From the sequence record PQ724392.1: 64,000 bases of DNA. One strand, 5' to 3'. A model generated the notes under the pieces. It did not search any database. It saw only the letters and a list, made by a program, of their open reading frames with translations, and was not told where the DNA came from. Of the stretch, positions 3,392 through 34,072 are shown piece after piece; position 1 is the first letter of the stretch; the number at the start of each line of letters is the position of its first letter. The translations under genes and the position numbers were made by a program. Origin of the DNA: a phage.

Positions 3392-6300
3392 ATGGCCGAT
3401 ATTTTAAAACCAGCATTCAGAGCAACATCCGGTCTCGATGCTGCTGGTGAGAAAGTCATTAATGTCGCAAAAGCTGATTACTCAGTTTTATCAGACGGCG
3501 TTAACGTAGGTTTCTTTATAGAAGAAAACACAGTTCAACAATATGATGCAACACGCGGATACAAAAAGAACTTTGCAGTTATTAATGATAACCGTATTTG
3601 GGTTGCTCAACGTGATATTCCGGCACCAGCTGGAGCATTTACCCCTCAGTATTGGTTAGCAACTCGTACTGACCCTAAATGGGAAACTGTTGCATCTCCA
3701 ACTCGTCAGCTTAGCTCCGGGGAATTTATCGCAGTCGACTCAGCTGCAAGCTTTACCACATTTACCTTACCTCCGAACCCGACTGATGGTGATACCATCG
3801 TTATTAAAGATATCGGCGGTAATACCGGTTATAATGAAATTAAAATCCAGTCAAGCAACGTGCCTGGTCAAGGTAACCAAAAGATTGTTCGCTTTGGTAA
3901 TCAGTATTCAGAAGTTTTAATTACCAAACCATTCTCTTATAACATGCTTATCTTTTCAAACCGCTTATGGCAATTTTGGGAAGCAGGTAACGAAGAACGT
4001 GGTATCAGAGTAGAACCGTCGACCGGACGTTTCCATGCACAAGCTGGCGACTTTATTATGCGTCGTTATACAACTGGTGCACCGATTACTTTCATTCTTC
4101 CTAAGTATGCAAACCAGGGTGATATTGTCAAATCTGTTGATATCGATGGCATGGGGCCAACGTTCCACCTGATGGTTGAAACCTTTGACACCAGTTCCAG
4201 TCTTGGGAAAGCTGGCCAGCATCAAATGGAATTCCGTACCACAGGTGATGGTTTCTTCGTTTATAATGCTACCGAAAAACTCTGGTATGTTTGGGACGGT
4301 GATTTTAAAACTCGTCTTCGCGTTATTCGCGACAGCGTTAAACTTTTACCAAACGAAAGTGTCATTGTATTTGGCGAAGATAACTCAACTCCGGCAACGA
4401 TTAATATCGATTTGCCAACTAATGTTTTGCAAGGCGATATTGTTAAGATTGCGCTGAACTATCTCCGTAAATCGCAGACTGTTAATATAAGAGCTGCTGT
4501 TGGCGATAAGATTGCAACTGACATTAAATTGCTGCAATTCCCTAAACGTTCCGAGTATCCACCAGATACAACTTGGGTGATGGTTGATTCATTGACCTTT
4601 AATGGCAACATCAGTTATACTCCGGTTATTGAATTATCATATGCAGAAGATGCAGTGTCTGGAACAAGTTATTGGGTTGTCGCTCAGAACGTCCCGACTG
4701 TCGAACGAGTTGACTCATTAAATGATTCCACGCGTACACGTCTTGGTGTTATTGCTCTGGCAAACCAGACTCAGGCAAACGTTGACCATGAAAATAACCC
4801 AGAAAAAGAACTCGCAATTACCCCTCAGACTTTAGCCAACCGTGTTGCTAAAGAGAACCAACGAGGCATTGCCAGAATCGCAACGACTGCCCAAGTAAAT
4901 CAGAACAGTGATTTTGCATTTGTTGATGATGTAATTATTTCTCCGAAAAAACTCAATGAACGTACGGCAACAGAAACGAGACGTGGACTCGCAGAACTCG
5001 CCACACAGCAAGAAACCAATGCGGGTGTAGATGATACCACAATTATAACTCCAAAGAAACTGCAAGCTCGCCAGGGCTCAGAATCGCTATCTGGTATTGT
5101 AACTTACGTTTCAACGACTGGTGCAACTCCTGCTGCTTCGCGTGAATTAAATGGTACAAACGTTTATAATAAAAATACGGTTAATCTGGTTGTTTCTCCG
5201 AAAGCTCTTGACCAGTACAAAGCTACTTACACTCAGCAAGGCGCGGTTATTCTTGCGGTTGAAAGTGAAGTAATCGCTGGTACTTCACAATCTGGCTGGG
5301 CAAACGCAGTCGTTACTCCAGAAATGTTGCATCGCAAAACTGCTCTTGATTCCCGTATCGGTTTAATCGAGATTGCTACTCAGGTTGAAACAGATGCAGG
5401 AACCGATTATACCAGAGCTGTGACTCCTAAAACGTTAAATGACCGTAAAGCATCAGAAACGTTAACCGGCATAGCCGAGATTGCTACGCAATCAGAATTT
5501 GATACTGGAACTGATGATACTCGTATCTCAACTCCATTAAAAATTAAAAATAGATTTAATAATACTGCTCGTACTTCTGTTAATGCATTAAGTGGTTTAG
5601 TAGAAACAGGGACGCTCTGGGACCATTATAGCCTGAATATTCTTGAAGCAAATGAGACTCAACGTGGCACAGCAAGATTAGCAACTCAGGGTGAAGTCAA
5701 TACTGGCACTGACGATAAAACAATCGTTACTCCGCTTAAATTGATGTCGAAAAAAGCCACTGAAAACGCCGAAGGTATTGTTCGCATTGCGACAAACGCA
5801 GAAGCAACAGCAGGCACATCAAAAGTCTTGGCCATTAGTCCGTCTGCGCTGAAATATATTGTCCAAACAGAAACAACTTGGGAAGCATCTGAAACACTGC
5901 GTGGATTTGTTCGTTTATCTTCCGGTGCAGCTACTTCGGCCGCAACTACAACGACGGGCGCGGGATTTACATATGCAAATGGTGTGTATACCCCGGACCC
6001 AAGTAAACTGGTTAGCTATGCGAAATCTGGATATGCAGTTTCGCCTTACGAATTAAACCGCGTATTGCAAAACTTCTTACCAATAAATGCGATGGCTGTT
6101 AATGCTGAAAAACTGGATAACCTCGATTCAACCCAGTTTATTCGTCGTGATATTGCTCAGACTGTTGAAGGTGTATTAACCCTTACTAAGCAGACAAATA
6201 TCTCTGCTCCGGTTGTATCGACGAGCACTGCGGTGTTTACTGATGTAACGGCTGGTACTTCGACGTTCGGAACTGTGAATGTTGTTAATGGAACTAACAA

Positions 6301-26690: not shown

Positions 26691-28523
26691 TTATAGTGTT
26701 GCATTCATCCAATCTTTACGCTGCTGGGAATCTTTACCGAAGAGCATTTCGAACAGTTCTTTCCAGTTGTCGGGCAATTGAACAACTTCGAATACTGGTT
26801 CGAGCAATACGCGTTTGTACTCGGCATCTTCCAGAGAACCAAGCCCCTTGATATATCGGATGGTGTGCTTCGGAAGTTTATCCTTAGCTTCTTCATAGTC
26901 AGGAAGAGAATAGAACCATTCTTGTTTATCTTTGAGCTGCGCAATAATAACAGGAGTTTTCACAAAGCGAATTCGTCCTTCATGGAACAGCTCTGGCCAG
27001 TTACTGAAAAACGCCAATAACGATGGATAGATACTACCGACACCATCCACATCCGCATCTGTCATGATAGCAATGTTTCGGTAATTCATATTCTCGGCTG
27101 GTTGCCCAATCGTTAAACCAGTAATCGCACACACATCAAAGGCTTCGGCGTTCTTCATAACGTCAACAGCTTTCAGACCCCATGTGTTTTTGAACTTACC
27201 ACGTAACGGATAAGCACCTTGTAATTCACGGTCGCGGACCTTGATAAATGGACCGGTTGCAGAATCACCTTCGGTCAGGAACAGAGTCGTTTCCAGCTTA
27301 TCATTGCCCCATTCGTTGGCCTTGATATGCTTTTGCACCTTGGCCTTTGAAGCTTTCTTATTCGCCTTTGTCTCTGCTGCTTTCTCTGCAGCCAATTTAC
27401 GGGCTAATGCAGCTTCAACAATCGGCATAATCAGTGGTTCATTTTTCAGAATAGCTTGCGCGATTTTCTTGGCATCAATCTTAATGTGATTTCGAATTTC
27501 ACCAGCCGGAGAAGTCAATCGCTCCTTAGTCTGGGAATCAAATCGCATGTTGCTCATATCGCGGATGAACATAAGCATGGTGAGGCATTCTTTAACTCGT
27601 GCCTTTGTCACCTCAATGCCTTTATATTTGCGTTTAATGGCTGGCTGAAGATGTTCACAGATATCATCCATAACACATTCAACGTGGTGCCCACCATTCT
27701 TTGTATGAATGTTGTTGACATAAGTCAACTGGCGGAAACCATCCGGGCTAGTCGTAAAGGCCATCGATACTGTATCAGTTTCCTGGATAACAACTTCGGT
27801 TCCGAATTGCTTGGCGAACTTCTTGAAATTGCCATCAACCTTTTTACCATTAAAGGTAAACTGAATATCTGGATAAACAACCGCAAGAGTCTGCAGACGG
27901 TCCAATGTAATATCCAGATAAATCTGGGACAGGCTATTTTCTTCAAAGTGACTGAAGTCCGGAACAAAAATAACAGTTGTACCTTTACCCTTAGATTTCT
28001 TGGTAGACCAACCTTTGTTTTCCATACCATTGGAGCAGTTAACGGTGATTTCATTTGCACCATCAGCGGTAATCCCGGTGAACAATACAGAGAAAATATT
28101 GGTCAGAGAAGACCCGACGCCATTCATCCCGCCAGTTTTACGTTCAGCATCATCGCCGAAGTTACCACCAGCTTTTGGAATAGTCCATGCTGCAACAGGG
28201 CCAGGGATTTGTTCACCGTTTTGGTCTGTAACCATTGCTTGTGGAATACCACGGCCATTATCAGAAACCGAAATCTGATTGTCTTTAATTTGAACATCAA
28301 TTTTATTGGCAAATTTAAAACTGGTGCGAATTGCTTCATCAACAGAGTTATCAATAATTTCATCAATCAGTTTTACAATACCAGGAACATAGCTTACGGA
28401 CTTATATTCACCAAACAAGAATCGCTCATGCGCTTCATTTGAACTGGAACCAATATACATCCCGGAACGTTTTTTGATATGCTCGACGTCCGAGAGTACT
28501 TTAATTTCATTATTAATCATCAT
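26691..28523 (-). CDS. 39: DNA topoisomerase II large subunit, single fused 39/60-type ORF (GyrB-like)
   Basis: 610-aa ORF; GHKL ATPase motifs (IDNSVDEA, DNGRGIP, GGMNGVGSS) and TOPRIM (LTEGDSA, MTDADVDG); C-terminal part corresponds to what T4 encodes separately as gene 60. Confidence 0.9.
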   Translation of the reverse strand: MMINNEIKVLSDVEHIKKRSGMYIGSSSNEAHERFLFGEYKSVSYVPGIVKLIDEIIDNSVDEAIRTSFKFANKIDVQIKDNQISVSDNGRGIPQAMVTDQNGEQIPGPVAAWTIPKAGGNFGDDAERKTGGMNGVGSSLTNIFSVLFTGITADGANEITVNCSNGMENKGWSTKKSKGKGTTVIFVPDFSHFEENSLSQIYLDITLDRLQTLAVVYPDIQFTFNGKKVDGNFKKFAKQFGTEVVIQETDTVSMAFTTSPDGFRQLTYVNNIHTKNGGHHVECVMDDICEHLQPAIKRKYKGIEVTKARVKECLTMLMFIRDMSNMRFDSQTKERLTSPAGEIRNHIKIDAKKIAQAILKNEPLIMPIVEAALARKLAAEKAAETKANKKASKAKVQKHIKANEWGNDKLETTLFLTEGDSATGPFIKVRDRELQGAYPLRGKFKNTWGLKAVDVMKNAEAFDVCAITGLTIGQPAENMNYRNIAIMTDADVDGVGSIYPSLLAFFSNWPELFHEGRIRFVKTPVIIAQLKDKQEWFYSLPDYEEAKDKLPKHTIRYIKGLGSLEDAEYKRVLLEPVFEVVQLPDNWKELFEMLFGKDSQQRKDWMNATL

Positions 28524-28545
28524 CTTTCCTCTTGTGTATGGAGGT

Positions 28546-28570
28546 ATTATAAGTCACATATTTTAAAGCA
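28546..28570 (-). promoter_or_regulatory. candidate middle promoter for gene 39
   Basis: minus strand TGCTTTA (Mot box) - 12 nt - TATAAT, ~25 nt upstream of the gene 39 ATG. Confidence 0.5.
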
Positions 28571-28590
28571 AAAAGGCCCGAAGGCCTTTT
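28571..28590 (-). terminator. terminator-like tetraloop hairpin
   Basis: AAAAGGCC-CGAA-GGCCTTTT palindrome overlapping the stop codon of ORF 28589-28990. Confidence 0.55.
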
Positions 28591-28990
28591 ATTTGAATCG
28601 AAGCTGCTCTAACATTTTAATAGCTTGTAGGCGCCCGGCTTCAGTTTTAACCGTAATAATAACATCGCCACCGGTAACAACGATATCCTCTTTTGATTCC
28701 TGTTCGGTTATTTCAGAATCACATTCCTTTGGGGTTTCTTCAAAATATTTAAATTCATCACCAAAAATAAGACCGGTTCCATTACGACTATGGAAAGAAA
28801 ATCCAGTTCCATCGATAGTACTAAATTCCGTCACAACATTTGCTTCCATCTTGGTGACTGAAAACTCTTTGGTAGTAATCAAATCAATGATAGAGGTTCC
28901 TTGCTGGTTCAAAATGCAACCGGGCATACCGACATGTTTAAGGAAGCCATCTAAATCTTTAATGCAATAACTCTTTCCAATTTTAAACAT
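28589..28990 (-). CDS. hypothetical protein
   Basis: 133 aa from internal ATG with GAGGA SD (track ORF 28589-29167 would overlap the upstream gene). Confidence 0.45.
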   Translation of the reverse strand: MFKIGKSYCIKDLDGFLKHVGMPGCILNQQGTSIIDLITTKEFSVTKMEANVVTEFSTIDGTGFSFHSRNGTGLIFGDEFKYFEETPKECDSEITEQESKEDIVVTGGDVIITVKTEAGRLQAIKMLEQLRFK

Positions 28991-28997
28991 AATATCC

Positions 28998-29258
28998 TCA
29001 TTCAAATCGGATGGTTGAATTCTTGAACAACAAACCAGAACAAACAGTTCCTTCAACTTTCTTACCAGTTGGACCCACGGCCGTAAAGCCTGTATGTTGG
29101 AAATCATCTTTACCGCAAGAGAACCAATTATATCCGGTGATTTGGATTTGTTCATAGCCGTTTGCATCTAATACACGAATGGCATTATCTGCATCAGTAC
29201 AACCAGCCAATGAAACCGCCAGCACCAGCGCTGCAATAGAACGATTAACGTATTTCAT
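28998..29258 (-). CDS. putative lipoprotein
   Basis: 86-aa ORF; N-terminus MKYVNRSIAALVLAVSLAGC = signal peptide plus lipobox L-A-G-C. Confidence 0.5.
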   Translation of the reverse strand: MKYVNRSIAALVLAVSLAGCTDADNAIRVLDANGYEQIQITGYNWFSCGKDDFQHTGFTAVGPTGKKVEGTVCSGLLFKNSTIRFE

Positions 29259-29263
29259 AATTT

Positions 29264-29440
29264 CTCACTTAGTCAGCAGGTCGTAAAAACCGCCATTAAC
29301 ATGTTTAGGAGCCGAGACTAACCGAACAGCCAGCCGATGGCAATCAGGACAAACATCATTATCTCTTTCAGAGATTTTCTTGATTTTTTCGTATTCTTTC
29401 GCGCAGTCATCAGATTGACATTTGTAATCATAAAGTGGCA
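29264..29440 (-). CDS. small zinc-ribbon protein (FmdB-like)
   Basis: hand-translated 58-aa ORF MPLYDYKCQSDDCAKEYEK....CPDCH with two CxxC pairs; AAGGAA SD. Confidence 0.4.
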
Positions 29441-29442
29441 TG

Positions 29443-29814
29443 TTATTCCTTAAAGTGTGCTTTCAACATCTGGTAAACGGTCCAGGCTTCGGAGTTATTA
29501 GAGATGGTAATTTTAGTCAAAGGGAATTCGCTTGGCTCAGATGGAGCTGCGTCTTCGCATTCATCTTCAGTATCGTCATCTTTTTCTTCTTCAAAGAAAC
29601 GGAATTCATCTTCCTTTATGAATAGGCTCACAAATTCACCAGTTGATAATTCCATTTTATACACATCACCATCTTCAATTCTGACTGGTCTAAATCCCTC
29701 GCCATTGATTATAGCATTGGCTATATTATCATTATCTGTGCATAACAAACGGAATCTGCTTTCAGCAACATTATCTTTAAAATAATACCACTTATCAGTT
29801 TCAAATTTAGACAT
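29443..29814 (-). CDS. hypothetical acidic protein
   Basis: 123 aa from ATG with AAGGAGA SD; very acidic tail EEEKDDDTEDECEDAAPSEPSE. Confidence 0.45.
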   Translation of the reverse strand: MSKFETDKWYYFKDNVAESRFRLLCTDNDNIANAIINGEGFRPVRIEDGDVYKMELSTGEFVSLFIKEDEFRFFEEEKDDDTEDECEDAAPSEPSEFPLTKITISNNSEAWTVYQMLKAHFKE

Positions 29815-30031
29815 TATAAATCTCCTTCCAAAAATCTGTACCATCTTCTGATTCTTCGCGGAACAGCGCATAGCTAGGTAATTCTGCGTCTTTGTCTGCA
29901 TACACATAAATGATATCAGTGGTGCAAAGAAATTCATTGATGTTTTTCTTCACAATCACTTTATCACTTTCGGCAGTGTCCCAAAACTCTTCAGCGGTCA
30001 GGGAAGTGGTTACACAATCTTCATTAAACAT
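29807..30031 (-). CDS. hypothetical protein
   Basis: 74 aa from internal ATG with GAGGAGA SD. Confidence 0.4.
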   Translation of the reverse strand: MFNEDCVTTSLTAEEFWDTAESDKVIVKKNINEFLCTTDIIYVYADKDAELPSYALFREESEDGTDFWKEIYNV

Positions 30032-30046
30032 AATATTCTCCTCATT

Positions 30047-30065
30047 GATAGGGCAAAACCCTATC
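30047..30065 (-). promoter_or_regulatory. intergenic hairpin
   Basis: GATAGGG-CAAAA-CCCTATC between ORF 30077-30637 and ORF 29807-30031. Confidence 0.4.
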
Positions 30066-30076
30066 ATTTTTATAAT

Positions 30077-30637
30077 TTAGGCAAAATGAATATCAGCATA
30101 CTCAACGATAAAGCTCTCAGGAACAACCTTAAAGGTTCCAAGGAACACGATATTATACAGTTTGACCCCTTCTTCAACCCACTGGTCTGTGATGTAACCA
30201 GACATGCTAGTGGTTTCATAAGTCGGACCATACATGCAATTGTATTCAAACGGTTTAGGTGAAACAAAAAAGACACCTTTACCCAATTTCCATTTAAAAT
30301 CAACCCCAACATGAGACTGGTCAATGGTTTCAACGTCTTGAGCAATTACGCCACGAATATCATTGCTTTCGCACACATATCCATCATGGGATTCAACTTC
30401 TTCAACCACAGGGAGGTTGGCGGCAGTAATAGCAGTTGATTCCAGGAATTTAGCACGCACATAAGCGAATTGAGTTTCAGTCTGACCATTTTTGGGAATG
30501 ATACGCACCTTTACTTCATTATCAGGATGGTCAACAAAAATATCAGCACGAATACTGACAACCTCAACAAAACGTCCAGCAGCTCTTGAACGAGATTTTT
30601 TGGATACGCGAACGATTTCGCCAGCTTCAACTTTCAT
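30077..30637 (-). CDS. hypothetical protein, paralogue A (shared C-terminal domain)
   Basis: 186-aa ORF; C-terminal ~40 aa (SGYITDQWVEEGVKLYNIVFLGTFKVVPESFIV) similar to C-terminus of 30716-31471. Confidence 0.5.
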   Translation of the reverse strand: MKVEAGEIVRVSKKSRSRAAGRFVEVVSIRADIFVDHPDNEVKVRIIPKNGQTETQFAYVRAKFLESTAITAANLPVVEEVESHDGYVCESNDIRGVIAQDVETIDQSHVGVDFKWKLGKGVFFVSPKPFEYNCMYGPTYETTSMSGYITDQWVEEGVKLYNIVFLGTFKVVPESFIVEYADIHFA

Positions 30638-30666
30638 AATTTTCTCTCTTGGTTAATAAGTTTATT

Positions 30667-30710
30667 CTCCAGTGGGGTCATTATACTCTGACCCCAAGAG
30701 TTTGTACACT
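30667..30710 (-). promoter_or_regulatory. early promoter cassette with stem-loop (PeSL-like), second exact copy
   Basis: 44 bp identical to 19575-19618; upstream of ORF 30077-30637. Confidence 0.55.
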
Positions 30711-30715
30711 TTAAT

Positions 30716-31471
30716 TTAATTAAAAATTTCAACAACCATAGAACGTGGTACAACAGTAAATTCACCAGCATGGACAACGTTCAGGAGTTCAACACCATCT
30801 TCAATCCACTGGTCTGTTACCCAACCACAAATGGAACTGTTAAATGGGCGTTTGATTTGAACTGGTTTGCATAACAAGTCAATAGGGTCACCCAGTTCGC
30901 TAACTTCTTCCAGCAGTACAGATTCACGCGGATAAAGGATAGCTTCAAGATTGTCACCTGATTCATTGACTGCAGTAAATTCAAAGATGCTTTGGTGATT
31001 GTGGTACTTAACTGTTTTAACGGTAAATGGAGCAAATCCAAAAATACCTTTCAGTACCCGCCACCCGGCATGCATTGCAACAGTCTTTCCAAACTGACTG
31101 GCATCTTCAATAAGCTGATAGGTTTTACCAACTTTGATGGGAGTTTCTTCAACTTCTTTGAAGAGTTCAATCTCAGCTTCATAAACCATAATTTTTTCTA
31201 CTTCATTTGTATCAAGGCGACGTGCATGTAGAATATATGCTTTATCAAACCAGTTACTTTTTACAAAAGCTTCAACAATAAATTCACCTTCGCCTAAAGC
31301 ATCAGTCAGAGTATTATACCCAGAAACCATAGCTGCGTTTTGAATAATAGGTTCAATCAGTTGATAAGTTTTGTTAATTTCAATAGTCATATTTTGTTTC
31401 TCAAGTTTTAATGGTTTAATTGGGCGAACATACATGCTTACAACATCAAAGTCAATAAATTCTGGTTTCAT
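30716..31471 (-). CDS. hypothetical protein, paralogue B (shared C-terminal domain)
   Basis: 251-aa ORF; C-terminus ICGWVTDQWIEDGVELLNVVHAGEFTVVPRSMVV similar to paralogue A. Confidence 0.5.
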   Translation of the reverse strand: MKPEFIDFDVVSMYVRPIKPLKLEKQNMTIEINKTYQLIEPIIQNAAMVSGYNTLTDALGEGEFIVEAFVKSNWFDKAYILHARRLDTNEVEKIMVYEAEIELFKEVEETPIKVGKTYQLIEDASQFGKTVAMHAGWRVLKGIFGFAPFTVKTVKYHNHQSIFEFTAVNESGDNLEAILYPRESVLLEEVSELGDPIDLLCKPVQIKRPFNSSICGWVTDQWIEDGVELLNVVHAGEFTVVPRSMVVEIFN

Positions 31472-31728
31472 TATGCAACCTTATTGAACATCGCCAGTTG
31501 GTTAGGTTGTACAACCATAATTTCACGACGGCCTTTTGCGTTTGACACGTTCAAGTAAATGCCTTTGTTCATGTCTGTTTCTTTATCATATACCGCAATT
31601 TTATTGACAGTAAAGATTTTACCACGAATATTTGTAAATGCGCATTCAAACGCTTTAGTCAGACCTGCTTCGGCAGCTTGAAGAGCAGACATTTCATATT
31701 GTTGGCCAATTTCAAAAGAAGTAATCAT
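31471..31728 (-). CDS. hypothetical protein
   Basis: 85 aa from ATG with GAGGA SD; the track N-terminal extension reads through the conserved promoter/leader. Confidence 0.45.
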   Translation of the reverse strand: MITSFEIGQQYEMSALQAAEAGLTKAFECAFTNIRGKIFTVNKIAVYDKETDMNKGIYLNVSNAKGRREIMVVQPNQLAMFNKVA

Positions 31729-31759
31729 TTTGTTATCCTCATCAGTAGTTGATGAGATA

Positions 31760-31788
31760 ATTATGTCTCTTTCCATTGGCCTTGTACA
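31760..31788 (-). promoter_or_regulatory. T4-type early promoter
   Basis: minus strand GTGTACA - 17 nt - CATAAT, then conserved leader ATCAACTACTGATGAGGA. Confidence 0.5.
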
Positions 31789-31795
31789 CTACTTT

Positions 31796-32479
31796 TTATC
31801 GTTTTTTCGGTAAAGATAACGGGTCTGCATCTTCTTCGGAAGGAACTTCATCCAAACCAAGAGCATAGCGCTGGGCATACTTAAGCATCAAAATATCTTT
31901 CGCGCAGTCATGCACCGAATCATGCGCCACAAATCCATCTAAAGTCCCCTTCGGTAATGGAGTTTCACACATCTTACGGACGAGTGATAGGGCTTCAATT
32001 GCCGTCCTGATATCTCGTTGGTTCCAGAATACAACCGGCTCCAGGCCATAGGTATTCAATTCACGCTCGGGAATACCCTCATTGCGCTGTAGGTCACGGA
32101 TAAGGTCAACAAACAACGGGAAGTCAAAAGACATTCCACGACACCACATAAGGCTTTCATATTTGTTAATTCCATTACCATTCAGATAGTCAATCGCCTG
32201 TTGGATACCAGTCAAAGTATCAACATCTTGCGCAGAAGGAGCCAAGTTAACACGGGCTTCTGCTGATTGCTTTTTCCACCAACCCATGGTTGTTGTATCG
32301 AACAGACGCTTACCTTTTTGGTATTCAAGGCTAAACTTGATACGTTTGCCGCGATTAACCAGGGTTTCGAATGATTCCACAATAGCAGGGTCAGATTCGA
32401 ATGTAATCAGAGCCAGGTCAATAACGGCTCCCTTCGAGCCGTTTCCTAGAGTTTCAAAGTCAATAATAGCATCAATCAT
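31796..32479 (-). CDS. dexA: exonuclease A (DexA, DEDDh 3'-5' exonuclease)
   Basis: 227-aa ORF; MIDAIIDFETLG (Exo I motif), HDSVHDCAKD (Exo III-type H/D) and overall match to recalled T4 DexA (227 aa). Confidence 0.85.
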   Translation of the reverse strand: MIDAIIDFETLGNGSKGAVIDLALITFESDPAIVESFETLVNRGKRIKFSLEYQKGKRLFDTTTMGWWKKQSAEARVNLAPSAQDVDTLTGIQQAIDYLNGNGINKYESLMWCRGMSFDFPLFVDLIRDLQRNEGIPERELNTYGLEPVVFWNQRDIRTAIEALSLVRKMCETPLPKGTLDGFVAHDSVHDCAKDILMLKYAQRYALGLDEVPSEEDADPLSLPKKR

Positions 32480-32556
32480 CGCACATCTCTTTTAATTTTT
32501 GAATTTCACCAGCAACCATCGCACATCTCTTTTAATTTCTGAATTTCACCAGCAAC
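32477..32556 (-). repeat. 40-bp tandem direct duplication (2 copies, 39/40 identical) spanning the dexA start codon
   Basis: catcgcacatctcttttaattt(t/c)tgaatttcaccagcaac at 32477-32516 and 32517-32556. Confidence 0.85.
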
Positions 32557-32751
32557 ATAGTCGGAGATAAAAATCCCTGGCTCTTCATTGTTAAAATATT
32601 CAATCGCGGCCATACGTTTCCGAATAAGATTCAGTTCCAGTAAAACATAATTACCCTGCACGACGATAGTCGGATTATCTTCGAAAAATTCAACCGCGTC
32701 CTGAATACCATAGATAAGATTATCTAAATCTTCTTTATGTACTTTATACAT
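32506..32751 (-). CDS. hypothetical protein
   Basis: 81 aa from internal ATG; C-terminal codons lie in a 40-bp tandem duplication that also contains the dexA start. Confidence 0.4.
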   Translation of the reverse strand: MYKVHKEDLDNLIYGIQDAVEFFEDNPTIVVQGNYVLLELNLIRKRMAAIEYFNNEEPGIFISDYVAGEIQKLKEMCDGCW

Positions 32752-34072
32752 AATATGCGTCGTACCTCGCTCGTGTGATTCCAACATAAGCCAACTGGCT
32801 CGCTAATGAAGCTTCGGCCATATGGATGCATGGAGTATAGATGAATGCTTTGTCCACTGAAACGCCTTGGGCCTTGTGGATTGTACTGACCGGAAGAGCA
32901 CGAACTTTCAAGAAGGTCCTGCGCGCTTTCCAGAAGTCTTTCCACTCTGGACGTTTACCAGCGGCTTTCATCTGTTTGTATGTGTCAGCAACTTTCGCCA
33001 GATATGCCTGGAATTTTGGTTGCTGGTCTTCTGGTAAAACTTTAATGCGGTCAACCTGATATTCTTCATCTTCATCAATTGACTCAACTTCCAGGTCCCA
33101 GTAATTAATCACTAACTGGTGCGATTCGCCTTTACAACGGAGAATGGTGGAAGTGTATTTACAATCCTTGATACGAACCAACTGACCATTATTAAAAATG
33201 GTTTCGCTGAATTTCTTACCTTCAAATTCCAGCTCTTTCATGTGCGGCTCTTGCATAACCAGGACTTCATACGGTAAAAATGCTTTATCCGTTTCATATA
33301 GCTTGCGACGAATAATATTGTTCAGTTTTTCAACTGATTTATTCGTGTATGCATACATCCTGTTTTCCATCAACATATCAGCATCTTTTACAATACTGAA
33401 ATAGTTTACCATGAAATCCTTTAAAGCAGTTTGTGAGGTGAAACCTTGCACACCATGACCTTCATACATACAGTCACGGAACCAACCCCCATTACGAATT
33501 TCTGTCGCCACTTCAATGATAGGAGCATTACTTCGCATAACCTCAGTCAGATGAATCTGTTTGAACTTAGGATGCGTAAAGAATGGACTTATCTTTTGTT
33601 GTGTACTTCCTGGGTCAACCGGCTGCAGCTGGTGCATATCACCAATCCCAAGAATAGTACACCATTCAGGAACAGAGTTAAGAATAATCTTAAACAGAGA
33701 CCCGTCATACATACTTGCTTCATCGCAAACCAGAACATTACATTTTGACATGTCAGGCATTTCGCGCTGTTCAAAAACGTTTTGGTCTTCATATGTGGTC
33801 GGGTTAATCTTCAAGATACTATGGATTGTATTCGCTGTTTGACCAGACAATTTAGATAAAACTTTTTTCGCCTGGTGAGTTGGTGCAGCGAGCACAATTC
33901 CCATAACTCCATTACGCACTAAGTGGTCAATGACAAATTTTGTCAGAGTGGTCTTACCTGTGCCAGCTGGACCATTCAGAGTGATACATTCCCCTGAACG
34001 CCGCTGAATAGCTTCAGTGATATAATCAAAAGCTTCTTTTTGTCCTGTGTTCAAGTCTTCAAATTTAATCAT
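32744..34072 (-). CDS. dda: DNA helicase Dda (SF1B)
   Basis: 442-aa ORF; Walker A NGPAGTGKTT, ILAAPTHQAKK, VLVCDEASMYD, and C-terminal KAQGVSVDKAFIYTPCIH....LAYVGITRARYD match recalled T4 Dda. Confidence 0.9.
   Translation of the reverse strand: MIKFEDLNTGQKEAFDYITEAIQRRSGECITLNGPAGTGKTTLTKFVIDHLVRNGVMGIVLAAPTHQAKKVLSKLSGQTANTIHSILKINPTTYEDQNVFEQREMPDMSKCNVLVCDEASMYDGSLFKIILNSVPEWCTILGIGDMHQLQPVDPGSTQQKISPFFTHPKFKQIHLTEVMRSNAPIIEVATEIRNGGWFRDCMYEGHGVQGFTSQTALKDFMVNYFSIVKDADMLMENRMYAYTNKSVEKLNNIIRRKLYETDKAFLPYEVLVMQEPHMKELEFEGKKFSETIFNNGQLVRIKDCKYTSTILRCKGESHQLVINYWDLEVESIDEDEEYQVDRIKVLPEDQQPKFQAYLAKVADTYKQMKAAGKRPEWKDFWKARRTFLKVRALPVSTIHKAQGVSVDKAFIYTPCIHMAEASLASQLAYVGITRARYDAYYV

What the first reader, a model, noticed from the sequence alone, without database searches (positions are those of the whole stretch)
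30077..31471. Adjacent paralogous genes sharing a ~40-aa C-terminal domain in the 39-dexA variable region
ORFs 30077-30637 (186 aa) and 30716-31471 (251 aa) end with similar sequences (YITDQWVEEGVKLYNIVFLGTFKVVPESFIV vs WVTDQWIEDGVELLNVVHAGEFTVVPRSMVV) but differ in their N-terminal parts. Each has its own promoter cassette. Tandem paralogues with a swapped N-terminal domain in a hypervariable early region are typical of host-takeover or anti-defence families under diversifying selection. The neighbouring ORF 29443-29814 has a strongly acidic tail, as seen in DNA-mimic proteins.
Basis: seen in the sequence. Interest (0 to 1): 0.4.

Follow-up and report, generated by a model that had tools for sequence, protein, structure and literature searches.

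The report
motB and a three-barrel motB.1 paralogue

Summary
ORFs 30077-30637 (186 aa) and 30716-31471 (251 aa), both on the minus strand, share a 38-residue C-terminal module (20/38 identical, BLASTP E 3e-12; local score 119 against 20.5 +/- 4.1 in 5000 shuffles). Their N-terminal parts are unrelated.

The window comes from a Gaprivervirus-like T4 relative. The 186-aa ORF is MotB (PF17613, 4e-57). The 251-aa ORF belongs to the MotB.1 family. Patterson-West et al. 2021 described exactly this relationship: same C-terminal domain, different N-terminal domains, adjacent genes. Their tables list close relatives of this gene (VR25_011, SP18_gp012).

Points I did not find in the two papers:
- The 251-aa form carries two tandem homologous LSm/SH3-like barrels (hhalign E 2.6e-24), which occur singly in other phages.
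- The C-terminal module is confined to small T4-like-type proteins and always lies at the C-terminus (about 27 credible hits among 1.84 billion representatives).
- Selection is purifying (dN/dS 0.10-0.17), not diversifying.
- The shared module is acidic.

The "acidic-tailed" neighbour is the GoF orthologue, and nothing here points to a DNA mimic.

Side findings:
- The T4 reference motB.1 (119 aa) carries a one-base frameshift that every other T4 record listed lacks (the two read encode 143 aa).
- A covarying hairpin overlaps the motB promoter -10 element.

Function is still inferred. Interest is low.

The parts
30077..30637 (-). motB (186 aa including the stop codon in the coordinates): basic KOW-like N-terminal barrel, acidic disordered linker, C-terminal barrel
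   Evidence: Pfam PF17613 4.3e-57 and phrog_1671 9.9e-69 over the full length. 51% identical to T4 MotB, E 1.9e-61. AF2 model has mean pLDDT 71.6.
30434..30637 (-). MotB N-terminal KOW/SH3-like barrel (residues 1-68), pI 9.9
30317..30433 (-). MotB acidic linker (residues 69-107, net charge -8). It is about 24 residues longer than in T4 MotB and is predicted disordered.
   Evidence: pLDDT below 50 for residues 70-107. Charge. MotB homologues fall into length classes of 160-167 aa and 183-191 aa.
30098..30211 (-). Shared C-terminal module in MotB (residues 143-180)
   Evidence: BLASTP, hhalign. Four strands in AF2 with pLDDT about 86-94.
30680..30708 (-). Early-promoter-like site upstream of motB (TGTACA-17-TATAAT)
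   Evidence: The GT[TG]TAC...TATAAT arrangement is conserved in most of the 20 aligned loci, T4 included; in two RB69-like loci the -10 hexamer differs.
30673..30696 (-). 8-bp hairpin (TGGGGTCA gagtataa TGACCCCA) overlapping the -10 hexamer. It would lie at the 3' end of read-through motB.1 transcripts.
   Evidence: 72 of 72 cells paired in 9 distinct sequences; 5 of 8 pairs change on both sides; covariation 0.67 against 0.355 in shuffles (0 of 500); slid registers pair only 31-48%.
30716..31471 (-). motB.1-family gene (251 aa): leader motif, LSm/SH3-like barrel A, barrel B, linker and MotB-type C-terminal barrel
   Evidence: phrog_2333 1.5e-78. PF17613 hit confined to residues 211-247 (35.3 bits, cut-off 25). 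T4 MotB.1 aligns to residues 112-223, E 1.6e-16. AF2 mean pLDDT 75.2.
31391..31462 (-). Leader motif (residues 4-27, EFIDFDVVSMYVRPIKPLKLEKQN), predicted disordered
   Evidence: Conserved in the MotB.1 alignment. HMM hits of 1e-11 to 1e-18 in related loci. In other architectures the motif sits directly before the C-terminal module. pLDDT below 50.
31142..31390 (-). Barrel A (residues 28-110): the N-terminal domain of the common 180-aa MotB.1 forms
   Evidence: domA HMM 1e-41. AF2 pattern beta-alpha-beta-beta-beta-(short alpha)-beta with pLDDT 78-89. Weak match to the GoF-like phrog_622, E 0.0034.
30896..31141 (-). Barrel B (residues 111-192): the N-terminal domain type of T4 MotB.1
   Evidence: domB HMM 2.8e-46 here and 3.5e-36 on T4. 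A against B: local score 70 against 24.5 +/- 4.6 (0 of 5000); hhalign E 2.6e-24 over 78 columns.
30719..30895 (-). Linker plus C-terminal barrel (residues 193-251). The module shared with MotB is residues 212-249 (30725-30838), net charge -5.4.
   Evidence: Near-invariant CGWVTDQWIEDGVELLNVVHAG.F.VVPRS. Five strands in AF2. Charge.
31471..31728 (-). Small ORF (85 aa from Met17 of the 101-aa reading frame). Its stop codon overlaps the motB.1-type start codon. Lineage-restricted and of unknown function.
   Evidence: phrog_17795 covers residues 17-101. GAGGA lies 8 nt before the ATG at 31728, and the ATG at 31776 falls inside the promoter spacer. Only 6 homologues, all at least 91% identical.
31760..31788 (-). 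Promoter-like site (TGTACA-17-CATAAT) upstream of the 85-aa ORF and motB.1-type pair
   Evidence: It is a consensus match only; its conservation was not tested outside close relatives.
29443..29814 (-). GoF orthologue (123 aa): LSm-like N-terminal domain, acidic linker, short C-terminal segment.
   Evidence: BLASTP to T4 GoF E 2.8e-14 over the full length. phrog_622 3.7e-31. Position between 39.2 and cef as in T4.

Best explanation
The two ORFs are the early genes motB (30077-30637) and a long motB.1-family gene (30716-31471) of a Gaprivervirus-like T4 relative.

What they share. By sequence they are homologous only in their last 38 residues. In the models that stretch forms most of a small five-stranded beta-barrel of about 50-80 residues. 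This barrel defines a small family seen only in T4-like-type proteins, and it always lies at the extreme C-terminus.

What differs. Different small beta-barrels sit in front of it. MotB has one basic KOW-like barrel. The 251-aa protein has a short leader motif and two tandem, mutually homologous LSm/SH3-like barrels (A and B). Other phages carry A or B singly. The pair therefore reflects an old duplication followed by domain swapping and, in this lineage, joining of two N-terminal module types. It does not reflect fast residue-level evolution.

Proposed mechanism (inferred). The conserved C-terminal barrel is a common anchor. It brings both proteins to the same partner or site in the infected cell, most likely the DNA/H-NS nucleoid complex in which T4 MotB has been found. 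The N-terminal barrels decide what each protein does there. MotB would bind DNA non-specifically through its basic KOW half and disturb H-NS-DNA contacts. The MotB.1-type protein would bind RNA or protein through its LSm-like barrels.

Status of each step.
- Shown here: gene identity, extent of homology, domain architecture, restricted distribution, purifying selection, conserved motB promoter.
- Published for T4 MotB only: DNA binding, H-NS co-purification, toxicity, twofold effect on burst size.
- Inferred: the anchor role of the shared barrel, and any activity of the 251-aa protein.
For: Identity:
- PF17613 at 4.3e-57 for the 186-aa ORF, and 35.3 bits (cut-off 25) confined to residues 211-247 of the 251-aa ORF; phrog_1671 and phrog_2333.
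- 94-97% DNA identity to Gaprivervirus-type phages (e.g. vB_EcoM_RZ); RefSeq already labels both genes of vB_EcoM_RZ 'MotB-like transcriptional regulator'.
- Same gene order as T4.

Published relationship: PMC7827196 section 3.2, with VR25_011 (92% identical to the 251-aa ORF) and SP18_gp012 listed in its tables.

Extent of homology: 38 columns only.

Architecture:
- A and B are homologous.
- Module map across 23 loci.
- BFVD hits are family members, including T4 P39415.

Distribution: a profile of the module finds 35 proteins at E <= 1e-3 among 1.84 billion representatives. About 27 are credible. All are 43-251 aa long with the module at the C-terminus, and many combine a KOW barrel with a MotB.1-type module.

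Selection: dN/dS 0.10-0.17; the module is nearly invariant.

Anchor idea:
- The module is the only part kept through all N-terminal swaps.
- It is acidic (net -5.4 and -3.6), while the MotB KOW half is basic (pI 9.9). The basic half is therefore the likelier DNA binder.
- In all 20 loci that have a separate motB, a gene carrying the MotB.1-type C-terminal module lies directly upstream of it.
Against: - No experiment addresses the 251-aa protein or the isolated module.
- The published view assigns DNA binding to either MotB domain and calls the C-terminal domain an OB-fold (PMC7827196). I could not search with the C-terminal barrel alone, so its fold class is unresolved.
- T4 MotB's own module is near neutral (-0.2), so acidity is not universal.
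- Delta-motB.1 T4 has a normal burst size and latent period, and plasmid MotB.1 had much less effect on a reporter than GoF(D25Y) (PMC12152347). Those plasmids were made by gene synthesis and the paper cites the reference sequence, which encodes a truncated protein.
- Broken alleles exist (locus L015; protein P0259), so the gene can be lost.
- The AF2 models are of moderate confidence (pLDDT 72-75, pTM 0.42-0.43), and the relative orientation of the domains is not reliable.
Confidence: 0.72

Rival explanations
1. The shared C-terminal barrel is itself the nucleic-acid-binding domain (the published OB-fold/cold-shock-like assignment). Both proteins would then bind DNA or RNA directly through it, and the N-terminal domains would only modulate binding.
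Confidence: 0.25
2. The MotB.1-type protein modulates or antagonises MotB. Sharing only the C-terminal barrel, it would compete for MotB's partner or pair with MotB, tempering a protein that is toxic on its own.
For: In all 20 loci with a separate motB, a gene with the MotB.1-type module lies directly upstream. MotB alone is highly toxic (PMC6070864). The family-specific but conserved differences in the module (KLYN[IV]VF against ELLNVVH) would fit a matched pair. T4 MotB.1 runs partly as a dimer (PMC12152347).
Against: There is no direct evidence. Delta-motB.1 T4 grows normally (PMC12152347). Loci L020-L022 carry one hybrid gene and no separate motB within the stretch held. No complex prediction was possible with these tools.
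Confidence: 0.12
3. An anti-defence or host-range family evolving under diversifying selection.
For: Location in a variable, dispensable early region. N-terminal architecture varies between phages.
Against: dN/dS is 0.07-0.26 in barrels A and B and in the linker plus C-terminal module (0.10-0.17 overall); the 27-residue leader rests on only 0-3 changes per comparison and reaches 0.64 in one. The C-terminal module is near-invariant. Nothing links the genes to a defence system. The published MotB phenotype concerns H-NS and the nucleoid.
Confidence: 0.05
4. The motB.1-type gene is a decaying duplicate with no function of its own.
For: Broken alleles: L015 is split by a frameshift, P0259 is a 43-aa fusion remnant, and RB69 has a 29-aa peptide (PMC7827196). 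Delta-motB.1 T4 shows no phenotype (PMC12152347).
Against: Strong purifying selection. The module is near-invariant across distant phages. An intact gene is present in 21 of the 23 loci. The best-known 'broken' allele, in the T4 reference, is absent from every other T4 record listed.
Confidence: 0.05

Closest known systems
T4 MotB (PF17613; Patterson-West et al. 2018, 2021)
   Same: ORF 30077-30637 is its orthologue: full-length family match, 51% identity, same position next to cef, KOW-like N-terminal barrel plus C-terminal barrel, and a conserved early-type promoter.
   Different: It is 186 aa against 162 aa because of an acidic, disordered linker insertion. Overall pI is 5.2 against 9.2 for T4 MotB. 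DNA binding and H-NS effects have not been tested for this variant.
[quoted passage not shown] 2021; phrog_2333)
   Same: ORF 30716-31471 has the family's near-invariant C-terminal core, lies immediately upstream of motB, and its barrel B is homologous to the T4 MotB.1 N-terminal domain. The close relatives VR25_011 and SP18_gp012 are in the paper's tables.
   Different: It carries both N-terminal module types (A and B) in tandem plus the leader motif, giving 251 aa against 143 aa for intact T4 MotB.1 and about 180 aa for the common form. I did not find the tandem arrangement described in either paper.
GoF / MotB.1 / Frd.2 LSm-like fold family (Kim et al. 2025, PMC12152347)
   Same: Barrels A and B have the predicted five-strand small-barrel pattern. 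Barrel B is homologous to the published MotB.1 N-terminal domain. The window also holds the GoF orthologue (29443-29814) and a GoF paralogue (28589 to about 28990).
Small SH3-like beta-barrels (KOW of NusG/Spt5, Tudor/chromo/PWWP, EF-P domain I)
   Different: Sequence identity is only 5-22% and no shared functional motifs were identified. This is fold resemblance, not family membership.

Membership tests
MotB (Pfam PF17613) - ORF 30077-30637 | Full-length match to the family profile above the curated cut-off | tested here: met
   192.9 bits against a cut-off of 25, E 4.3e-57; phrog_1671 E 9.9e-69 covering residues 1-186.
MotB (Pfam PF17613) - ORF 30077-30637 | N-terminal KOW-like barrel plus C-terminal barrel | tested here: met
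MotB (Pfam PF17613) - ORF 30077-30637 | Position between cef and motB.1 in the 39-dexA interval | tested here: met
   Gene order in the window against T4 and vB_EcoM_RZ.
MotB (Pfam PF17613) - ORF 30077-30637 | Basic protein that binds DNA non-specifically and co-purifies with H-NS | not testable with these tools
   Published for T4 MotB only. This orthologue is acidic overall (pI 5.2), but its KOW half is basic (pI 9.9).
MotB.1 family (Patterson-West 2021 Categories 2-4; phrog_2333) - ORF 30716-31471 | Conserved C-terminal core motif related to the MotB C-terminal domain | tested here: met
   CGWVTDQWIEDGVELLNVVHAGEFTVVPRS. Module HMM 9.4e-40. PF17613 hit at residues 211-247. hhalign to the MotB profile E 3.7e-13.
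MotB.1 family (Patterson-West 2021 Categories 2-4; phrog_2333) - ORF 30716-31471 | N-terminal domain different from the MotB KOW domain | tested here: met
   No N-terminal similarity to MotB. Barrels A and B were identified instead.
MotB.1 family (Patterson-West 2021 Categories 2-4; phrog_2333) - ORF 30716-31471 | Gene immediately upstream of motB | tested here: met
   78-nt spacer in the window. The same arrangement holds in all 20 loci that have a separate motB.
LSm-like fold family (GoF/MotB.1/Frd.2, Kim 2025) - barrels A and B | Bent five-stranded antiparallel beta-sheet homologous to the T4 MotB.1/GoF/Frd.2 N-terminal domains | tested here: inconclusive
OB-fold, cold-shock-like (published assignment of the MotB C-terminal domain) | Five-stranded OB barrel with structural neighbours such as the eIF5A C-terminal domain | tested here: inconclusive
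DNA-mimic proteins - ORF 29443-29814 | Protein whose main feature is an acidic surface imitating DNA, with no other family assignment | tested here: not met
   It is the GoF orthologue (E 2.8e-14 to T4 GoF; phrog_622 3.7e-31) with an LSm-like N-terminal domain. The acidic stretch is an internal linker also present in T4 GoF. Mimicry itself was not tested.
Families under diversifying selection (anti-defence type) | dN/dS near or above 1, or hypervariable residues | tested here: not met
   dN/dS 0.10-0.17 overall and 0.07-0.26 in barrels A and B and the linker plus C-terminal module, from three pairwise comparisons; the 27-residue leader rests on 0-3 changes per comparison and reaches 0.64 in one. 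No site-model test was run.

The most novel reading that the evidence does not exclude
The invariant acidic C-terminal barrel is a docking module for one host or phage partner (an H-NS-type nucleoid protein, or MotB itself). The MotB.1-type paralogue would be a competitor or partner that tunes the toxic MotB. On this reading the published null results for MotB.1 are uninformative, because the constructs were synthesised and probably followed the T4 reference sequence, whose one-base frameshift removes the last two thirds of the shared module.
Probability: 0.12. Interest if true: 0.5.

Novelty: already known. Interest (0 to 1): 0.18.

Why it matters
The finding as stated matters little, because the motB/motB.1 relationship is published and the genes are already annotated. 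Two by-products are useful to people working on T4 early genes.

First, the natural MotB.1 proteins are full-length: 143 aa in T4 isolates, about 180 aa in most relatives, 251 aa with two barrels here. The 119-aa reference form used to define and test 'MotB.1' lacks most of the module that is conserved across the family. Functional tests should be repeated with intact proteins.

Second, the one element kept through every domain swap is a small acidic barrel. That makes it the obvious handle for finding the family's partner.

Tried and rejected
- N-terminal similarity between the two ORFs: none (score 39 against 29.8 +/- 5.1).
- Extension of the homology beyond 38 residues: not detected by profile-profile comparison. 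The models do place one more strand before the module in both proteins.
- The 85-aa upstream ORF as a third LSm-like barrel: rejected for now. hhalign gives E 0.028 at probability 1.8%. Shuffle tests reach the observed score in 151 and 114 of 5000 trials. Only 6 near-identical homologues exist, so no useful profile could be built.
- Extra N-terminal domain C of the 247-249-aa forms as a relative of A or B: no support (hhalign probability 2-3%).
- Solved structures: none related by sequence (best E 0.048).
- Exact-pattern scans of IMG/VR for the T4 frameshift and for the intact version: 0 hits each. The question was settled with tblastn against phage records instead.
- Fold class of the C-terminal barrel alone: could not be obtained.
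- Promoter scan as evidence in itself: the hit count equals the chance expectation. Only the motB site gains support, from its conservation.
Full report
**Observation**

Listing ORFs over 28000-33500 gives two minus-strand ORFs at the stated coordinates: 30077-30637 (186 aa) and 30716-31471 (251 aa).

BLASTP aligns residues 142-179 of the first with 211-248 of the second: 20/38 identical, 29/38 positive, no gaps, E 3e-12. The local score is 119. Shuffled C-termini give 20.5 +/- 4.1 (0 of 5000 reach 119), and shuffling the whole 251-aa protein gives 32.6 +/- 5.2 (0 of 3000). The N-terminal parts show nothing beyond chance: 39 against 29.8 +/- 5.1, reached in 126 of 2000 shuffles. Family profiles align only these 38 columns (probability 97.9%, E 3.7e-13).

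**Identity**

The window is from a T4-like phage. The 4-kb stretch is 94-97% identical to the best-matching records (EAWsc9, vB_EcoM_RZ, SP18); vB_EcoM_RZ is classified as a Gaprivervirus. Gene order matches T4: 39, goF-like, 39.1, 39.2, goF, cef, motB, motB.1-position gene, small ORF, dexA, dda.

- The 186-aa ORF is MotB: PF17613 at 4.3e-57, phrog_1671 at 9.9e-69, 51% identity to T4 MotB.
- The 251-aa ORF matches phrog_2333 (1.5e-78). It matches PF17613 only at residues 211-247, at 35.3 bits against a cut-off of 25.
- T4 MotB.1 aligns to its residues 112-223 (E 1.6e-16).
- RefSeq already labels both genes of vB_EcoM_RZ 'MotB-like transcriptional regulator', and UPEC01 calls the 251-aa protein a 'MotB domain-containing protein'.

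**What is already published**

Patterson-West et al. 2021 (PMC7827196, section 3.2) report that MotB and the adjacent MotB.1 share a conserved C-terminal domain but have different N-terminal domains. They sort 102 homologues into four categories and suggest a duplication. Their tables list VR25_011, which is 92% identical to the 251-aa ORF, together with SP18_gp012, VR20_011 and VR26_012.

Kim et al. 2025 (PMC12152347) place the MotB.1 N-terminal domain with GoF and Frd.2 in an LSm-like/SH3-like fold family. They report no phenotype for delta-motB.1 T4. Only these two papers in the library mention MotB.1.

**Anatomy of the 251-aa protein**

Aligning 27 diverse homologues and scanning 23 loci with module HMMs shows a modular family. 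The modules are:
- a leader motif (LIDFDVVSTYVxPxKPLEIKE);
- barrel A;
- barrel B;
- in some phages an extra N-terminal domain C;
- a linker (DPTDLLCKPVxIRRPF) followed by a near-invariant C-terminal core (CGWVTDQWIEDGVELLNVVHAG.F.VVPRS).

Architectures seen in the gene upstream of motB:

| Architecture | Where |
|---|---|
| leader + A + C-terminal module (about 180 aa) | most phages, e.g. L003, L005, L007, L008, L012-L014 |
| B + C-terminal module | T4 |
| B + leader-like motif + C-terminal module | L016-L018 (L015 is a frameshift-split version) |
| C + leader + A + C-terminal module | L004, L006 |
| leader + A + B + C-terminal module | the window, L002, L009-L011 |

A and B are homologous to each other: local score 70 against 24.5 +/- 4.6 (0 of 5000), and hhalign E 2.6e-24 over 78 columns.

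The AF2 model (mean pLDDT 75.2) shows a disordered leader (residues 1-27). Two repeats of the pattern beta-alpha-beta-beta-beta-(short alpha)-beta follow, and then a five-strand C-terminal unit (203-248).

The MotB model (pLDDT 71.6) shows a five-strand N-terminal barrel, a disordered acidic linker (70-107) and a five-strand C-terminal unit (121-180). The last four strands of that unit are the shared module.

**Distribution of the shared module**

A 43-column profile of the module from both families found only 35 proteins at E <= 1e-3 among 1.84 billion representatives. About 27 are credible single-stretch hits. All are 43-251 aa long, and all carry the module at the extreme C-terminus.

Their sequences include many proteins that join a MotB-like KOW barrel to a leader-like motif and a MotB.1-type linker and core (P0244, P0246, P0249, P0251, P0254, P0257, P0258). 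Loci L020-L022 carry such a hybrid and no separate motB within the stretch held. The two families grade into each other, and the C-terminal barrel is the constant element.

**Selection**

Pairwise Nei-Gojobori estimates among three 251-aa orthologues give dN/dS 0.10-0.17 overall. By module the values are 0.10-0.14 for the linker plus C-terminal barrel, 0.07-0.21 for B and 0.11-0.26 for A. The 27-residue leader rests on only 0-3 changes per comparison and reaches 0.64 in one. This is purifying selection.

**Charge**

The shared module is acidic here: net -5.4 in the 251-aa protein and -3.6 in MotB. The 251-aa protein has pI 4.8. The MotB KOW half is basic (pI 9.9). This MotB is acidic overall (pI 5.2) because of its linker insertion, whereas T4 MotB has pI 9.2. 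The residues invariant across both families are G, D, W, E, G, L, N and V.

On this basis I favour the basic KOW half as MotB's DNA binder and the shared barrel as a docking module. This is inference. T4 MotB's own module is near neutral, and I could not test the fold or binding of the barrel alone.

**Transcription signals**

motB has a promoter-like site in its upstream spacer (TGTACA-17-TATAAT, 30708-30680). The GT[TG]TAC...TATAAT arrangement is conserved in most of the 20 aligned loci, T4 included, while neighbouring bases vary; in two RB69-like loci the -10 hexamer differs.

The start codon of the 251-aa gene overlaps the stop codon of the upstream ORF. The nearest promoter-like site (31788-31760) precedes that ORF, whose likely start is the ATG at 31728, which has a GAGGA 8 nt upstream. 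'Each has its own promoter' is therefore right for motB only.

**The neighbouring 'acidic tail' ORF**

ORF 29443-29814 is the GoF orthologue: E 2.8e-14 to T4 GoF over the full length, phrog_622 at 3.7e-31, and the same position between 39.2 and cef. The acidic run is an internal linker that T4 GoF also has. Nothing here points to DNA mimicry.

**Side findings**

1. T4 reference motB.1. The reference (NC_000866/AF158101) carries an extra G (ATTGGAAGAT where other records have ATTGAAGAT). The ORF then ends at 119 aa, and the rest of the conserved module is intact in the next reading frame. In a tblastn of 739 matching phage records, only these two T4 records match in two pieces among those listed; every other T4 record matches in one piece. 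I read two of them, MT984581 and HM137666, and both encode an intact 143-aa protein. Kim et al. cite NC_000866.4 for their cloned T4 sequences, had their plasmids made by gene synthesis, and report a 13.8-kDa protein. Their plasmid assays therefore probably used the truncated form.
2. Hairpin at the motB promoter. An 8-bp hairpin overlaps the -10 hexamer. It is kept through compensatory changes in three sequence versions: 72 of 72 cells pair, 5 of 8 pairs change on both sides, and covariation is 0.67 against 0.355 in shuffles (0 of 500). Slid registers pair only 31-48%.

**Verdict**

The finding is correct as an observation and partly correct as an interpretation. As a discovery it is already known. 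What remains open is the function of the shared barrel and of intact MotB.1-type proteins.

Noticed in passing
L001 (NC_000866.4) about 4143-4330 minus strand; L023 and L024 201-632: The T4 reference motB.1 (119 aa) has one extra G that truncates the conserved C-terminal module. Every other T4 record listed matches in one piece, and the two I read (MT984581, HM137666) encode an intact 143-aa protein. Published MotB.1 constructs were made by gene synthesis and the paper cites the reference sequence.
   Followed up: yes
window 30673-30696 (minus strand): An 8-bp hairpin overlaps the -10 hexamer of the motB promoter and is kept by compensatory changes in three sequence versions (T4-type, Gaprivervirus-type, JS98-type). 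RB69-like loci lack it. Its role is unknown; it may be a 3' stabiliser or processing signal for the upstream transcript.
   Followed up: partly
window about 30660-30672 (minus strand), just 3' of the hairpin: A GGAG motif follows the hairpin in the window, T4 and most JS98-type loci, but not in L007 and L008. GGAG is the target motif of the T4 RegB endoribonuclease (from my own knowledge), so this could be a processing site.
   Followed up: no
L020-L022 3231-3617; proteins P0244, P0246, P0249, P0251, P0254, P0257, P0258: Hybrid proteins join a MotB-like KOW barrel to a leader-like motif and a MotB.1-type linker and C-terminal core. L020-L022 have no separate motB in the stretch held. The two families grade into each other.
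   Followed up: partly
protein P0259; locus L015 3110-3626: Broken alleles. P0259 (43 aa) fuses the first 15 or so residues of MotB.2 to the last 27 residues of the MotB.1 module, which looks like a deletion remnant. In L015, barrel B and the C-terminal module lie in different reading frames.
   Followed up: no
window 30317-30433 (minus strand): This MotB has a disordered acidic linker about 24 residues longer than in T4 MotB, making the whole protein acidic (pI 5.2 against 9.2). SP18 and ECML-359 have the 163-aa form without it, so motB itself is mosaic among close relatives.
   Followed up: partly
window 31471-31776 (minus strand): The 101-aa ORF probably starts at Met17 (ATG at 31728, GAGGA 8 nt upstream); the upstream ATG lies inside a promoter-like spacer. 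The 85-aa product has only 6 homologues, all at least 91% identical. It replaces T4 motB.2 at this position and is translationally coupled to the motB.1-type gene.
   Followed up: partly
window 28589-29167 and 28998-29258 (minus strand): The 192-aa ORF overlaps the 39.1-like lipoprotein gene. Its likely start is Met60, giving a 133-aa GoF paralogue (phrog_622 5.4e-15). With GoF and barrels A and B, the 39-dexA interval holds four LSm-like modules within about 3 kb.
   Followed up: no
L017-L019: RB69-like loci carry two tandem motB copies downstream of the MotB.1-type gene, as reported for RB69 in PMC7827196.
   Followed up: no
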